A DNA stretch of 64,000 nucleotides from Fimbriosthenelais zetlandica. Lineage: Eukaryota. The stretch is from contig OZ365114.1 of NCBI GenBank assembly GCA_977030845.1, positions 20,646,001-20,710,000 on the forward strand, written 5' to 3'. Positions 15,001 to 54,000 of the stretch are shown piece after piece (position 1 is the first letter of the stretch; each line of letters starts with the position of its first letter). A program made the position numbers.

Positions 15001-18000
15001 CTGAATCGAGGTGTAGTATTTCAAATAACCCCCTGCGTTTTGATGACTTCGGATAATTGGACAGATCTGTAATTGTTCTCAATAGAAGCCAGAGGTTTCT
15101 TTTATTGAAACGTGCCAAGAAAGCATTATTGGCATCACCTTTTCTGAACGTTCTGCACTAATGCTTTCACCTGGAATATTTGATAACCTGGCCCATGCAG
15201 TCAACCACCCCATTTTTTCATTGCACCTCCACGGTTTTTGTGTATGTACAAATCTGTCGTTGGTTTTCAGAAGCAGGACCTTTATAACCGTGTGTAGTAA
15301 TTCGGTTGTAAACACAGGCGCCATGTCAAATGTTGTATGACAGAACGTGTGTTTCCATGGTGAACAACCACTCCGGGAAAGATTCCAACACAAACTTTCC
15401 CATCTCTAGCTCTCTCCTATACAATAACTCTTCACCTAACATGCACATATACAATTCTCCACTTTTTCTACCACATCCTAAAAAGTTGTCGCTTCAGTTC
15501 ATGATAAAACGCTACCGTTAAATTCGCACCTAATATTTTGATAGAATTGAATAGTAAAAAAACATACCTTAGACGGTTGCTGTCTATATATTGAGATTAA
15601 AGGGGTATGGGTCATTTACTAAGGTTAATTGGCCAAATCGACCACATCAATTAGGGCGTTGGAATCATCTTCCACATCCACCGGGGATAAAGGCATGTCA
15701 TCGACCGTGTGGAGATGTTCGTCTTTGTGGTGGTGGTGGTTGGTGGTGGTCGGAGTGGTGGTGCTAGGGTGGTGGTGGTGGTGGGGAGATGAAGATAGCC
15801 TCCTTGATATAACTGAGGGTTCTGTAGTTGTACTATGGGCTTGTGTAGGTGAGGGGGAAGAGGAGGAGAGGGGAGGAGGGGGTCGTCTATCAGAGGATAG
15901 TGAGATATGGGAGGGGAAGACAGGGGAGAAGGACGGGGTAGAGGAAGAAGCTTCTTCTTTATGAGGGGAACAATCCATATCATTGTCTTCTGAATCAGTC
16001 GACTGTCTTTCATGCACCTTTTTGTGTCGCTCCAAATTGGACTTGTGACTAGTAGCGTAGTCACACTGACTACACATATAGTCTTTCTGTCCACTGTGGA
16101 CGGTCAGATGCCTTTTGAGGAGAGCTTTCCTACAGAAATTTCTCCCACAGAAGCGACACATGTAGCCGTTACTATGGAAAATGAGAACATGGTCGCGGAG
16201 GGAAGCTTTATTTTTGAACACCACCCCGCAGCATTCCAGGGCTTTGTCACACTCCTGATGCATGGTCGCTATGTGTCTTTTCAGATTATTTTTCCGGTCT
16301 GTAATGTAGCGACACTGCGGGCAGCCAAAGAGTTTCTTTCCCAGGGGATAGTGTCCCATGCGGGCCAAGTCAAGGAATGGGTTGGCAGCTTTGGCAAACG
16401 GGTCGGCGGCGGCTAGGTACTGGGAGGCAGCCAGGGCCTTGTCGGCGCCCAGGAATTGCTGGAGGTGTGAGAGGGTGTATGGAGATTGGGAAGTTTGAAA
16501 CCACATGGGCATTGACATGGGAAAAGCGGGGTGGTGGTGGTGGTGGTGTGGGTGGTGGGGGACGGCGGCCGCGGCAGCAGAGACCGACTGGCCGACTCCA
16601 CAGTGGCCGCCTCCACCGCCCCCTCCTCCGCCACCACCTCCACCTGGCGCGGCGTCCTTGAGTCCCATCATCACGGCCGCCGTCCGTTCGTCTACTCCAG
16701 GGTAGGCGGGCGGGCAGAGACCGTGGAGGTGCGCCGCGGCAGCCGCTTGTTGCTGATGAACTCCTGTACCTGACCCCCCTCCTCCTCCGGGCATGCCTGG
16801 ATGGTGGTGATGGTGGTGGTGGAGACCTAAATGTGGGTGGTGCCCTGTAGGTACTTCCTTTGTAGAACATGGACTGCTGGCACTGGAGAGACTGTTGTTA
16901 TTGGTACAGGAGGAAGGGACTGATTTAAAGGCGCTGGTGGAGGATGTAGAGGAGGAGGGTGGGGAATGGGAGGGTAGACCCGGGAGGGAGGGACCACTGG
17001 CGGCCGGGGATCCTCCCGTACTGGGCCCTCCACCTCCTCCTGGACCTCCTCCTCCAGCAGGTCCTCCTCCTGCTCCTCCACATTGCTGGCCCATGGTGGG
17101 GCCCATCATCAGGGGCCATCTGCTGATAATAGACAAGAGAAAAACTCATAAATAACTAGCAATCATTATAAGCCCTAAAACCCTATAAATCTAAAACCTC
17201 GCTAAAAATAATAAGGTTACATTTGTACCAAAAAACTGTTCTATACTCAATACAAAAATCTACAATACAAAAAGAAATTGATTAAAAGTCTCTCCTTTGA
17301 GACTACGTGGAAACCTTAATTTGGAATTTTGAGGAAACAATTAAGAATTAGAAAGAGAGAAGTGCATTTAGGAGCTGGTGATTGGGAATTGGTAATGACA
17401 GTTTACAAAGTCAATATGTTTCTTTACATTAATGTCCCGCCCTCCTATTATACTCCCGTTCCGGGTACACATATAAACCATTGTCCACCTTCCTCCTTCT
17501 CACTATACAACTCAAAGGCCCATATAATAAAATTTCACAATGATTTCAAAATCGCGTGAGAGTTAATGTTGCGAGGGGAGCCTTTGGACGCGGGATGACG
17601 CGGCTCTCCCTCCGCTTCCGGACTCCCCATGGTCCGGCGTGAACAGACCCAAAACAAGGCCGTCCTACCACGCTTATTTCACGTGTATACGTTAAATGAT
17701 TTATATAATTGCTTAGTATTACGGCCACAATTCCCGTTATAATAAAACAGGACTCTTTTCCTAATTTCCAGGACCACAATGACGCATATCCCGTCGCTTG
17801 TCGAAATTCAAATATTTGTTCAAATTGATATTCTCTGACGCATTCCCATTTCTATTTTGAAAGAATGTTTATTAAAGAGTCCAGTATTTTGAGAATTATA
17901 AAATATTAGTTTGTTTATGCCCTTTCGTGCGACTAATGCCATGATATTAAACACCATGATATACCCATTAATTTTACATTAGTCGCGTTAAACATTTGAA

Positions 18001-51000: not shown

Positions 51001-54000
51001 TCATTGGTTGGTTGTCCCAGTGACGTGGGAAGTCTGAAAAGATGACAAAATTCATAATGTATTTCCTATTGATTTGACTGCAAGTTTGGTTGGTTTGGTA
51101 GGTAACTATTTTCTGCTGCGTAATGAAATGCTTTAAAGAATGAAATCTTAAGATTCCATATATAACGCATCTCCTATTACTTTATCTAAAAGAAAATATT
51201 ATCAAAAAAAGATAAAAATTCACTGAGTAATTTCCATAACGATGATGAGGATCATCATGGATTGAATTATTACCACAATGTGAGATTAATGACATAAGTA
51301 TTGTACTTCTATAACAATCTCCATATCCAGGTGTTCATCTTCAACCCATCTTATGTATTTAATCGGTCAATCACCAAGAATATGTGAGCTATATGATTAC
51401 TTGAAATTCACAGCTGGGAGGTGGGTTGAATAGTAATGAGTTTTGAATCAATTCAATGTATATACATGTACAGGTTGTGATTAATATGATGTATGCTTAG
51501 AACCTGTGCCTCAATGGACCAACATGGTCCAGGGGCCCTCCTATATAGTCACTCATTATTCTGATCCTTAATTATTGTGATCATAAAAGTTGGCCACACT
51601 CGCGCTGAAGGTGTCATATTAGTAATTAGATATGCATATAAAATGCTCTCTAGGTATACACATATTTTCAGCTACAATAAAATTATTCATAGGTCCAGGT
51701 CATTAGAAAATGTTTGAAGAGAGGTCAAATGAGAATTTGATTTGGAGAATCTCTATATTCAGTGCTAAATAGGTAGATCAGTGCACTGCTTGCAGCATAC
51801 ACATATTGAAGCCATATTAGTATTGATCAGTGACTATTAAAGCTGCGATGTGCCCAACTGCAAGCTCTAGGCTTCCAATAGCAACCAATACTATACACAT
51901 ACTAAGTTAAAAGGCAGTGTATCTGTAGCAGATGAAGATGCTCATGTTCAGGTACTCACATACCAAGTTATTTGTTTTATATTCTGTCAGGTTATGATAT
52001 ACGACAATGAGTGTATGGAGTGATTACTCACCTGAAGCTGTTGGGGAGATACATGGTCATAGGTAATTCCTAAACAGAAACGTCCGATGATGATCCTTCA
52101 GTGATCCGCACCCAACTATAGAGCTGGATCTAGTGAGTGTGGAGGGAGGAAGAGTGTGCTGACGGTTGGCTTGAGACAGTCCTTGCCTCTGTTGTTACAC
52201 TGCCCGTACACGTAGACTCACTGAAGCACTCTCTCCCTTGACGAATCACTTTATTTGTCTGTCAACCTCCTCACACACTCTCCCGCAGGTATAATTGTGG
52301 CGGCCACCCGTTCCTGATTGGTCCTCCCGCGTCACGTGCCGGTCGTCAACCAATGAGCGCTGCTCATCCTACATTCACAGACGACATTTTCGGCTCTCTA
52401 TCATTGTGATGATTCATATGCAAAGTTGACCGTGTCCCCCCACCGCCCCGTGAAACTTTATTGATATGATTATGATTGTGTTATTTGGATCGGGTAAAGG
52501 GGGTTGCTTCAATTAATCATTTACCGCCGAAGATCACTATTAAAACGAAAGAAAAAAACGTGTGTGGAGGGGGTGACTTGATCTGAACAAAGTTGTTATA
52601 TGGCCAAACAGACAACCTCATTACCACATATTACCGTGTGTGTACATGACCGATGGGCGAGCAACAAAGACAACAGAGTGTGGTGCGGTAAACACTACAC
52701 TCATCTTTGTGTGCAGTTACTTTTTTACTTTCAATAATTCAGCCAATATATAGCTTTCGGTCCGTATATCCCTTTTTTTAATTCTTTTATCATTCTTTTT
52801 ATGTTCTTTGTCTTATTCAATATTTATTATTAGTAAAAATATTTAAATTGTTTTTTAATTTCATACATTTTGAGGTTTTCTGTTCCCCAGCTGTTCGCAT
52901 ATACATCGCCATGTTTATTGTATTCTCTATATTAAAATGAAAAGAATGGTTTCCTCTTCTCTCTGTTTCGCATTCCTTCCATCCTGTTCTCTTACACCCT
53001 CGACGGCTGCTATCATTTTCTTACCATTTCTCAAGGGTTCTCTCACACTTTATCTTTTTCTTGTAACAAAACCAACCTTTAGATGAGAGACACCTCACTC
53101 TTGACCCCTCGACATAACCTATCCTTCACTCTGACAGTGCTGAACACCCGCATCAGCCATAGAGCAGGAGAGGAGTGTCGGCGGCAGTATACAGAGATAG
53201 GCGATGTTACCTTTTGATGTAGAAAACCTATATTTGTTCAGGTATTGTGTGGAATTGCTGCAATCCACACAGCCGGACTCCCTACTGGGATAATAAGCAC
53301 GTCTCGCTTCCCAGCTCCCCTCTTCACACCCAGCATCCCAACCTTCTTCAAGACAACATTCTTTAAGTGATGGATTCTCAGTAAAGTTTTTTTCTCAGTG
53401 AACACCATCCAGGTTTTTTCCATATCCTCATATTTTATCTACATCTTAAGCCATAAGAATGTGCATTATCGTGTTAATTGGAAAGGTCCATTAATATAAA
53501 ATGTTAACATTTATGGACTTATATCCTATCCTTTATAATATATAGTCTATATTGATTATGTGTGAGATATTGATCTCTACTCTATATAAGAGATTCTGGA
53601 TAGTGTATGACAGAGTGGCAGGTCCCTAAAGGATCCATTTAAGAATACATTCTGAGAGGAAATATATCAGAGAAAGTTGAGCATACCAAAATGTGTGTCA
53701 TTGTTATAAAAGTAAGCCTCGGGCTATCAGTGAAGTCAACCAAGCGTCACTGACTTTGGTGATGTTTAGAATGCACAATGCAGAGCAAATGAAAGGCAAC
53801 CATCATATTCAGTAGAAATTTTGCTGGTTTTGCTAAAATACAAACAACCCCTTTCTCAGACTTATTTGAATGTTAAATATTGAATAAGTGGAACTATGAA
53901 AGAGTTGCTCATAGCATGGTCCCATTAGTTCACGCACTATCTGCTTTTATACAATTATATCTATACGTGCCACCTCATAAACATTCTCACCTGAGCACCA

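What the first reader, a model, noticed from the sequence alone, without database searches (positions are those of the whole stretch)
15625..52359. Tandem pair of an unassigned four-finger C2H2 transcription-factor family with fully parallel gene architecture
Seen: two head-to-tail genes with finger arrays offset by 34,187 bp. They differ at only 5 of 108 finger-array residues (I/M, A/S, E/D, V/L, M/L), and the usual base-contacting helix positions are identical. They share a micro-exon, intron phase, promoter module, pre-finger motif and LIDVVD motif, but have completely different disordered regions. I could not match the array to the named families I recall (Snail, Gfi, Insm, Ovo, Hb/Ikaros, Chn). 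The Y[AI]T..K.NL.RH fingers are only loosely REST-like. Inference: two factors reading the same DNA motif with different effector surfaces, within a ~29-kb gene-free interval typical of developmental regulators.
Basis: partly seen in the sequence, partly recalled or inferred. Interest (0 to 1): 0.68.

Follow-up and report, generated by a model that had tools for sequence, protein, structure and literature searches.

The report
Tandem pair of zinc-finger regulator genes
Two neighbouring genes encode related DNA-binding regulators from a conserved invertebrate zinc-finger family that has no agreed name; this is an ordinary old gene duplication, and the family itself is the mildly interesting part.

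Summary
Two intact minus-strand genes lie 34,187 bp apart. Each has a 23-nt N-terminal coding segment, a phase-2 intron at the same codon and one large exon. Their four-finger arrays differ at 5 of 108 residues. A pre-finger motif and an acidic LIDVVD motif are shared; nothing else aligns. The claimed shared promoter module is not supported.

The pair is an old duplication under strong constraint (dN about 0.02, dS about 0.85-1.16). Each copy has its own orthologue in the databases, so it is not a haplotig.

Both genes belong to a sharply bounded family: 177 database proteins carry the full core (179 with the two window genes). Named members come from annelids, a brachiopod, molluscs and decapod crustaceans. 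Source names are inconsistent similarity labels (18 names, 15 different; none REST or charlatan).

The DNA-contacting residues of fingers 1, 3 and 4 are essentially invariant family-wide (179, 179 and 178 of 179). So "same motif" is a family property, not a feature of this pair. Finger 2 is non-canonical, with an invariant Cys-Cys.

The most likely function is sequence-specific transcription factors with different effector regions. A direct comparison with Drosophila Charlatan or vertebrate REST could not be run. Interest is modest.

The parts
19352..19374 (-). Gene 1, N-terminal coding segment: ATG plus 6 codons plus 2 nt (MYLSVNL), followed by donor GTAAGA. The intron is phase 2.
   Evidence: Found by a scan of 32 candidate ATG...AG|GT segments. 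Sequence read. The peptide is 7/7 identical to the start of Owenia P0027.
17120..19351 (-). Gene 1 intron, 2232 nt.
   Evidence: Donor and acceptor read; length.
15628..17119 (-). Gene 1 large coding exon (1492 nt). The stop codon is at 15625-15627. With the first segment the gene has 505 codons.
   Evidence: ORF; acceptor ...TATCAGCAG|A; codon arithmetic. P0001 aligns end to end at 70% identity.
16342..16470 (-). Gene 1 pre-finger motif (SHLQQFL...NPFLDLARMGHYPL).
   Evidence: Inside the 84%-identical block; translation.
16006..16341 (-). Gene 1 four-finger C2H2 array (112 codons, GKKLF...KVHER). Contact residues are RNNR in finger 1, NASD in finger 2, RALR in finger 3 and HSNR in finger 4.
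   Evidence: Pfam PF13909 (E 6.7e-18) and PF00096; coordinates; family conservation.
15637..15654 (-). Gene 1 LIDVVD motif. It sits in an acidic context, 8 residues from the C-terminus.
52032..52060 (-). Gene 2, N-terminal coding segment: ATG at 52060 or a second ATG at 52054 (M(TM)YLPNSF plus 2 nt), followed by donor GTGAGT. The intron is phase 2.
   Evidence: An in-frame stop lies 4 codons upstream of the first ATG.
51034..52031 (-). Gene 2 intron, 998 nt.
49632..51033 (-). Gene 2 large coding exon (1402 nt). The stop codon is at 49629-49631. The gene has 477 codons, or 475 from the second ATG.
   Evidence: ORF; acceptor ...TCTTTTCAG|A. P0008 aligns over residues 6-464 at 72% identity.
50529..50648 (-). 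Gene 2 pre-finger motif (SQLQQFL...NPFFDLARMGHYPI).
50193..50528 (-). Gene 2 four-finger C2H2 array (112 codons). The contact residues are the same as in gene 1.
   Evidence: Pfam hits (107/112 aa and 291/336 nt identical to gene 1).
49977..49994 (-). Gene 2 LIDVVD motif in an acidic context, followed by a Pro/Gln-rich tail of about 115 residues.
   Evidence: The tail is shared with P0008.
52317..52448 (-). Candidate core-promoter motifs upstream of gene 2: GGGCGG, ATTGG, CACGTG and CCAAT. This is inference from motif matches only, and the cluster is not shared with gene 1.
   Evidence: Motif positions; sequence.
19375..49628 (.). Interval of about 30.3 kb between the gene 2 stop and the gene 1 ATG. 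No gene was detected in it.
   Evidence: 25 ORFs of at least 90 aa. The 9 longest have no Pfam match. No Rfam family, no tRNA, and no third family locus by tblastn.

Best explanation
These are two functional, anciently duplicated, head-to-tail genes for sequence-specific C2H2 zinc-finger transcription factors. They belong to a conserved protostome family that has no agreed name.

Each gene has a short N-terminal coding segment that encodes a conserved peptide, M-Y-L-x-x-(N/S)-(L/F). A phase-2 intron follows, then one large exon. That exon encodes a low-complexity region, a conserved pre-finger motif, four fingers and an acidic tail with a hydrophobic-Asp-Val core (LIDVVD).

Shown here: gene structure, paralogy, strong purifying selection on the array, family membership, and family-wide invariance of the DNA-contact residues.

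Inferred: both proteins bind the same site of roughly 12 bp as every other family member, mainly through fingers 1, 3 and 4. A simple recognition-code reading, recalled and unreliable, gives G-rich triplets (GAG-like, GTG-like, GAR-like). The proteins would differ in the cofactors they recruit through their unrelated Gly/His/Ser-rich (gene 1) and Pro/Ala/Gln-rich (gene 2) regions.

Also inferred: the N-terminal peptide and the acidic LIDVVD module are docking sites. The acidic module has the pattern of a SUMO-interaction motif, a hydrophobic core flanked by Asp/Glu/Ser. That reading rests on recall and was not tested.

Gene 1 keeps the architecture common to most relatives, with the motif at the very C-terminus. 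Gene 2 looks like the more derived copy: it has Leu in place of Trp after the split Arg codon, an added C-terminal tail, and only one orthologue was found.
For: - The ORFs are intact and Pfam zinc-finger hits are above their cut-offs.
- The core is 84% identical (E 2e-102) and nothing else is similar.
- For the array, dN is 0.024 and dS 1.16 by NG86, or 0.020 and 0.85 by YN00. Third codon positions are identical in only 74 of 112.
- The intron is at the same position and phase in both genes.
- The exon-1 peptide equals the Owenia N-terminus and resembles that of Lingula.
- tblastn finds only these two loci in the window, and each matches its own orthologue along its full length.
- The family is sharply bounded. 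Of 176 fetched proteins, 147 score at least 100 bits for the whole array in one stretch, and the other 29 score at most 45.4 bits. After the representative search there were 179 full-core members, counting the two window genes.
- Contact residues are RNNR in finger 1 (179/179), RALR in finger 3 (179/179) and HSNR in finger 4 (178/179).
- An acid-flanked [ILV][DN]V motif lies after the fingers in 104 of 179 members. In 65 of those 104 it is within 15 residues of the C-terminus.
Against: - There are no expression data, so the transcription starts and the micro-exon status are unproven.
- DNA binding and target sites are inferred from residue conservation only.
- Finger 2 is non-canonical. Its Cys-Cys pair is invariant, but the upstream Cys is present in only 131 of 179 members, so it may not be a normal DNA-reading finger.
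- The cofactor assignments for the N- and C-terminal motifs rest on pattern recall alone.
- The acidic motif criterion was not met in 75 of 179 members. Several of those have short or truncated tails.
- The age of the duplication is unresolved. The clade that holds both genes is a polytomy.
Confidence: 0.8

Rival explanations
1. The family is not unassigned. It would be the spiralian and crustacean branch of the Charlatan / REST-like repressor family, and the two window genes would be short-form offshoots that lost the distal fifth finger. On this reading they work as REST/Chn-like silencers, or as competitors of such silencers.
For: - Long-form paralogues of 477-1073 aa in other species carry the same four fingers plus one distant C-terminal finger. 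A strict pattern finds this in 10 of 28 long or decapod proteins, and two more were seen by eye.
- Charlatan is described as having 5 zinc fingers, being NRSF/REST-like and binding CoREST (passage in PMC2988793).
- Charlatan is also described as lacking a mammalian orthologue (passage in PMC7503973). That fits the absence of vertebrate members among the hits here.
- A "REST factor (Fragment)" cluster appears at score 0.95 in both Atlas searches. This is a lead only.
- In the core tree the long forms branch outside the short forms, with SH-aLRT support of 80-92.
Against: - No insect protein with the family core appeared among the 357, 29 and 41 hits of the three word-indexed searches, which together covered lengths from 278 to 2530 aa.
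- None of the 18 similarity-derived source names is charlatan or REST.
- The window genes have four fingers and no distal finger.
- The Atlas hits are generic zinc-finger clusters that share only 130-156 of 256 features.
- No Charlatan or REST sequence could be obtained, so there is no direct comparison.
Confidence: 0.2
2. The pair is an assembly artefact: a haplotig, or a collapsed or duplicated contig, of a single gene.
For: There are two copies of a very similar 464-nt block in the same orientation.
Against: - Identity is only 81.5% and is confined to the conserved coding core. The flanks, introns and remaining coding sequence cannot be aligned.
- dS is 0.85-1.16.
- Each copy has a separate full-length orthologue elsewhere. 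P0001 is 70% identical to gene 1 and P0008 is 72% identical to gene 2, and the non-core segments of each copy hit its own orthologue set and never the other's.
Confidence: 0.01
3. One transcription unit rather than two genes. Because both first coding segments end in the same phase, the upstream gene 2 first exon could splice to the gene 1 large exon. The locus would then give alternative or chimeric isoforms, or gene 2 would be a decaying copy.
For: The orientation is the same, and the donor phase and acceptor phase are identical in the two genes. No other gene was detected in between.
Against: - Each large exon has its own upstream ATG segment with a good donor.
- Gene 2 is intact, with dN/dS of about 0.02 in the array. 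Its tail is conserved in P0008.
- PolyA-like hexamers lie 201 and 524 nt after the gene 2 stop.
Confidence: 0.07

Closest known systems
REST/NRSF (vertebrate neuron-restrictive silencer factor)
   Same: Fingers 1 and 4 here are of the C-x-Y-x-(T/S) type that hits Pfam zf-H2C2_5 (PF13909). A cluster named "REST factor (Fragment)", whose members carry PF13909 and PF23611, is an Atlas look-alike at 0.95. In other species the long forms of this family add one distant C-terminal finger. By recall, REST also has a distant last finger.
   Different: The window genes have four fingers and no distal finger. No vertebrate protein carries the family core among the hits. No REST sequence was available for a direct alignment.
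Charlatan (Chn, Drosophila NRSF/REST-like repressor)
   Same: It is a protostome C2H2 factor reported to have five fingers, REST-like similarity and CoREST binding (PMC2988793 passage), and no mammalian orthologue (PMC7503973 passage). The finger count matches the long forms of this family.
   Different: No insect member of the family was found, and no source names any member charlatan. The window genes are four-finger short forms.
CTCF and ZFP64-type multi-finger proteins (solved structures)
   Same: CTCF is the only solved protein that aligns across the whole four-finger array in one stretch (query 1-110 against CTCF 403-517, E 6.5e-23). ZFP64 also matches (2dmd, E 4.9e-13).
   Different: CTCF has 11 fingers (recalled). 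The best-scoring PDB hits are generic poly-finger proteins that match only fingers 3-4 (PRDM9, ZNF568, Aart). Nothing in the PDB shares the family signature or the Cys-Cys finger 2.
Snail and Gfi families (names that some databases give to members)
   Same: They are short C2H2 repressors with a conserved peptide at the extreme N-terminus and a C-terminal finger block. Four family members are labelled SNAI2-like or Gfi-1b(-like) by their sources.
   Different: The N-terminal peptide here (MYLSVNLRWP / MYLPNSFRLP) is not the basic SNAG motif, whose consensus I recalled. The PDB matches to SNAI1 and Gfi-1 are weak (E 5.4e-11 and 3.4e-13): SNAI1 covers about two fingers and Gfi-1 about three. The finger number and signature differ.
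Paralogue sets that share one DNA specificity, such as Sp/KLF (a works-like comparison only)
   Same: There are several paralogues per genome with frozen DNA-contact residues and divergent effector regions (several Biomphalaria members).
   Different: There is no sequence relationship. The finger signatures are different.

Membership tests
C2H2 zinc-finger superfamily | Cys2-His2 fingers recognised by Pfam models above their curated cut-offs | tested here: met
   PF13909 scores 64.4 and 57.3 bits (cut-off 27). PF00096 scores 33.4 and 45.7 bits (cut-off 25.2). Both proteins pass.
Unnamed four-finger family (signature DRKNNLKRH / LECC / FCRKALLKRH / SHKSNLERH) | The whole 112-residue array is matched in one stretch at 100 bits or more, and the signature residues are present | tested here: met
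   Both window genes are among the 179 full-core members, and 41 array columns are invariant. Non-members score at most 45.4 bits.
Unnamed four-finger family | Conserved peptide at the extreme N-terminus, encoded before a phase-2 intron | tested here: met
   Gene 1 has MYLSVNL|R-WP and gene 2 has MYLPNSF|R-LP. Owenia P0027 starts MYLSVNLRCP and Lingula P0025 starts MFMPLNLRWP. Intron positions in the other species could not be checked.
REST/NRSF | A cluster of eight fingers plus a ninth distal finger, with terminal repression domains (recalled) | tested here: not met
   The window genes have four fingers and no distal finger.
REST/NRSF | Collinear sequence similarity of the fingers to REST | not testable with these tools
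There is only an Atlas look-alike at 0.95.
Charlatan (Chn) | Five C2H2 fingers (PMC2988793 passage) | tested here: not met
   The window genes have four fingers. Only long-form paralogues in other species have four plus one.
Charlatan (Chn) | Sequence orthology to Drosophila Chn | not testable with these tools
   No Chn sequence was obtainable. The key paper PMC1500973 is not held. The indirect evidence is negative: no insect protein with the core and none of 18 source names is charlatan.
Snail/Scratch | SNAG-type N-terminus and the Snail finger signature | tested here: not met
   The N-terminal peptide differs, by comparison with the recalled SNAG consensus. SNAI1 (3w5k) matches only positions 57-110 at E 5.4e-11.
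Gfi/Senseless | Six fingers plus a SNAG domain (recalled) | tested here: not met
   There are four fingers. Gfi-1 (2kmk) scores 53 bits over positions 36-110.
CTCF | An eleven-finger array (recalled) | tested here: not met
   There are four fingers. The CTCF similarity is 84 bits over four fingers, well below the 100 bits or more seen within the family.

The most novel reading that the evidence does not exclude
The two genes are short-form members of a still unnamed, protostome-wide transcription-factor family (Spiralia plus at least decapod crustaceans). Its DNA-reading residues have been frozen since before those lineages split, and its second finger is a non-canonical Cys-Cys finger. The long forms, with a distal fifth finger, would be the true counterparts of the Charlatan/REST-type silencers. 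The short forms here, lacking that finger, would occupy the same sites with other effector surfaces, acting as natural competitors or alternative-output versions of the silencer. Family paralogues tend to stay linked in the genome.
Probability: 0.15. Interest if true: 0.6.

Novelty: new member of a known kind. Interest (0 to 1): 0.35.

Why it matters
On its own, a tandem pair of C2H2 factor genes is routine. The useful results are at family level.

- The family is sharply bounded and conserved in annelids, a brachiopod, molluscs and decapods.
- Automatic annotation gives it 15 different names, so it is effectively invisible in comparative work.
- Its DNA-contact residues are invariant, so all paralogues should compete for one site.
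- Its second finger is unusual.

If the family proved to be the missing spiralian relative of Charlatan/REST-type silencers, neuronal gene silencing could be compared across protostomes. If it did not, it is still a clean candidate for a first DNA-binding and expression study in a spiralian model.

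Tried and rejected
- Atlas look-alike searches with the 164-aa core and with decapod P0154 gave only generic zinc-finger clusters and no family assignment.
- The whole-library representative search used fingers 1-2 (65 aa). It gave 5843 proteins at E up to 1e-3, 665 at up to 1e-10 and 39 at up to 1e-30. 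The 150 listed were a mix of poly-finger proteins with 7-34 matched stretches and family members. It added 32 full-core members but no taxon information, and it did not reach beyond about 94 bits.
The unnamed new members could therefore not be placed taxonomically.
There is no model, no fold search and no test of finger 2 geometry.
- Five literature searches found no description of this family. They gave only general statements on Charlatan, and the key Charlatan paper is not held. Supplementary files were not consulted.
- The forced global alignment of the two upstream regions is uninformative. The k-mer test is negative.
- The careful tree of the 42-row subset did not finish in the time limit. 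The quick tree was used instead and leaves the age of the duplication unresolved.
- Rfam, tRNA and tandem-repeat scans gave nothing relevant to the genes.
- A reading of LIDVVD as a degenerate CtBP-type motif was considered and rejected. Fourteen members carry both an acidic [ILV][DN]V motif and a separate PxDL-like motif.
- The spliced (joined) proteins were never built or searched. All searches used the large exon or parts of it, so the 7-9 N-terminal residues entered no search.

Full report
**What is there**

The window is about 36-49% G+C. It has one N run, at 58682-58821, which I left alone.

Two long stop-free frames lie on the minus strand: 15625..17145 (506 aa) and 49629..51065 (478 aa). 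Both carry Pfam C2H2 domains above their cut-offs, the best being zf-H2C2_5 (PF13909) at E 6.7e-18 and 1.1e-15.

BLASTP aligns residues 226-389 of the first with 140-300 of the second. This gives 138/164 identities, E 2e-102, and nothing else is better than E 0.23.

At DNA level the only similarity between the two 6-kb neighbourhoods is 16007-16470 against 50194-50648, 81.5% over 464 nt. The repeat finder gives a spacing of 34187.

The 112-codon array (16006-16341 and 50193-50528) is identical at 107 of 112 residues. None falls on helix positions -1, 2, 3 or 6, by the canonical numbering, which I recalled.

**Gene structure**

Reading the minus strand upstream of each large frame shows the same arrangement in both genes.

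- Gene 2 has ATG at 52060 (a second ATG at 52054), then M(TM)YLPNSF plus two bases, donor GTGAGT, and a 998-nt intron. The acceptor places the third base of an Arg codon at 51033.
- For gene 1 I scanned the whole interval for ATG-led segments that end AG|GT in the matching phase. Of 32 candidates, one gives MYLSVNL (19374..19352, donor GTAAGA). It joins the acceptor at 17119 to read ...L-R-W-P.
- That peptide is 7 of 7 identical to the start of the annotated Owenia fusiformis relative P0027 (MYLSVNLRCP). It is also close to Lingula anatina P0025 (MFMPLNLRWP). I take the exon as real.
- The genes have 505 and 477 (or 475) codons and introns of 2232 and 998 nt.
- An AG lies 9 nt upstream of each ATG, so each segment may be an internal micro-exon of 32-38 nt. 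Without RNA data this stays open.

I did not build or search the joined proteins. Every search used the large exon or a part of it.

**The claimed promoter module**

I could not confirm it.

- blastn finds nothing upstream of the ATGs.
- Shared 8-, 9- and 10-mers in the 500 nt upstream are at chance level: 8 against a mean of 4.05, reached by 36 of 300 shuffles; 2 against 1.03; and 0.
- Gene 2 has a plausible GC-box / CCAAT / E-box cluster at about 52317-52448. Gene 1 has only one inverted CCAAT.

**Not an artefact, and old**

- For the array, dN is 0.024 and dS 1.16 (NG86), or 0.020 and 0.85 (YN00). Third codon positions are identical in 74 of 112.
- tblastn with relatives finds only these two loci in the window.
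- P0001 matches gene 1 end to end (70%) and P0008 matches gene 2 (72%).
- The non-core segments of gene 2 hit only P0008. Those of gene 1 hit P0001 and P0002 (N-terminal part) and P0001-P0007, P0009 and P0010 (C-terminal part).
- So the two copies are separate orthology groups. Gene 1 is the commonly found type and gene 2 the rarer, more derived one.

Trees of the core (149 rows) and of a 42-row subset leave the duplication in a polytomy with the Lingula, Ridgeia and Owenia sequences. The subset tree is a quick tree, because the careful search did not finish. The duplication's age relative to those lineages is therefore unresolved.

**The family**

- A word-indexed search with the core found 357 proteins at E up to 1e-3 among 653 candidates of 278-886 aa.
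- A search for longer proteins found 29 among 103 candidates.
- A search seeded with a crab member found 41 among 86 candidates.
- Scoring all 176 fetched proteins with a model of the array gives a clean split. 147 match the whole array in one stretch at 100 bits or more, and the other 29 reach at most 45.4 bits.
- A whole-library search with fingers 1-2 was largely swamped by poly-finger proteins but added further members. The final count is 179 full-core members including the two window genes, plus 8 partial ones.

Named members come from these groups:

- annelids (Ridgeia piscesae, Owenia fusiformis)
- a brachiopod (Lingula anatina)
- many molluscs
- four decapod crustaceans

No vertebrate or insect protein carried the core.

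Sources give 18 similarity-derived names, 15 of them different. Examples are ZBTB49-like, SNAI2-like, Gfi-1b, hamlet and PLAG1-like. None is REST or charlatan. This supports "unassigned", as far as these tools can see.

**Family features**

- 41 of 112 array columns are invariant in all 179 members.
- Contact residues are RNNR in finger 1 (179/179), RALR in finger 3 (179/179) and HSNR in finger 4 (178/179). Finger 2 varies at positions -1, 3 and 6.
- Finger 2 is odd. The adjacent Cys-Cys of LECCG is invariant (179/179), while the upstream Cys expected of a canonical finger is present in only 131 of 179 members.
- After the fingers, 104 of 179 members have an acid-flanked [ILV][DN]V motif. In 65 of those 104 it is within 15 residues of the C-terminus.
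- 21 members have a PxDL-like motif and 14 have both, so the two motifs are distinct.
- In the tree, decapods form one clade. Long forms branch outside the short forms. The window genes sit in a non-mollusc short-form clade, and molluscs have two further short-form clades. Supports are moderate.
- A strict pattern finds a distal fifth finger in 10 of 28 long-form or decapod proteins.
This suggests, but does not prove, that paralogues are linked in other genomes too.

**How it most likely works**

Shown: two intact paralogous genes for C2H2 proteins under strong constraint in the array.

Inferred: both bind the same site as the rest of the family and differ in effector recruitment. Outside the core, gene 1 is Gly/His/Ser-rich and gene 2 is Pro/Ala/Gln-rich.

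The conserved N-terminal peptide and the acidic LIDVVD module are the obvious docking candidates. The acidic module has the pattern of a SUMO-interaction motif, which I recalled and did not test.

**Comparison with known families**

In the PDB the best scores are generic poly-finger proteins that match only fingers 3-4. CTCF alone aligns across all four fingers, at 84 bits.

Charlatan is reported to have five fingers, REST-like similarity and CoREST binding (passage in PMC2988793). It is also reported to have no mammalian orthologue (passage in PMC7503973). That resembles the long forms of this family.

I could not obtain a Charlatan or REST sequence. The key paper is not held. The indirect evidence, no insect member and no such name, argues against close orthology. 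I put that rival at about 0.2.

**What stayed unchecked**

- Metagenome and viral contig collections (closed).
- Paper supplements (closed). They are unlikely to bear on this finding.
- Any transcript evidence.

**Verdict**

This is a real, correctly described tandem pair, minus the promoter module. It is an ordinary duplication in a conserved, unnamed C2H2 family. Interest is modest.

Noticed in passing
window 61073-62944 (-): An uninterrupted 623-aa frame with seven hydrophobic segments, six of them between residues 287 and 555. This looks like a multi-pass membrane protein. By recall the layout resembles a six-TM cation channel. There is no Pfam match even at E 10, and no PDB match.
   Followed up: partly
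family alignment, finger 2 (window 16189-16257 in gene 1): The second finger has an invariant adjacent Cys-Cys (179/179), but the upstream Cys is present in only 131 of 179 members. How it binds zinc, or whether it does, is unexplained.
   Followed up: partly
P0138 (Chionoecetes opilio record): This database protein, named as a glucosidase, has the four-finger array at its N-terminus and an alpha-amylase-type domain (PF00128) at its C-terminus. It is most likely a gene-model fusion of two neighbouring genes. It also has an FTIEALL motif after the fingers.
   Followed up: no
hit tables: Three pairs of family members report identical longest-contig lengths: P0002/P0039 at 400472, P0111/P0117 at 126566 and P0066/P0163 at 550270. 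This hints that family paralogues are linked in other genomes as well.
   Followed up: no
P0201: A divergent 196-aa relative scores 92 bits. It keeps a Cys-Cys second finger and the RKALLRRH helix but has different first and third fingers. It may mark a more distant branch of the family; its taxon is unknown.
   Followed up: no
window 6989-7373: A local tandem duplication of a unit of about 190-205 nt. There are three repeat families with two copies each, 74-93% identical.
   Followed up: no
window 31741-31802 and 39162-39223: A 62-nt inverted repeat, 77% complementary, with arms 7.4 kb apart inside the intergenic interval. It could be the ends of a mobile element. The 226-aa ORF at 31615-32295 beside one arm has no Pfam match.
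   Followed up: no
window 58493-58997: The N run at 58682-58821 sits in low-complexity CT-rich sequence and is followed by a (GAGAGAGACA)n array at 58894-58997. It was left as it is.
   Followed up: no
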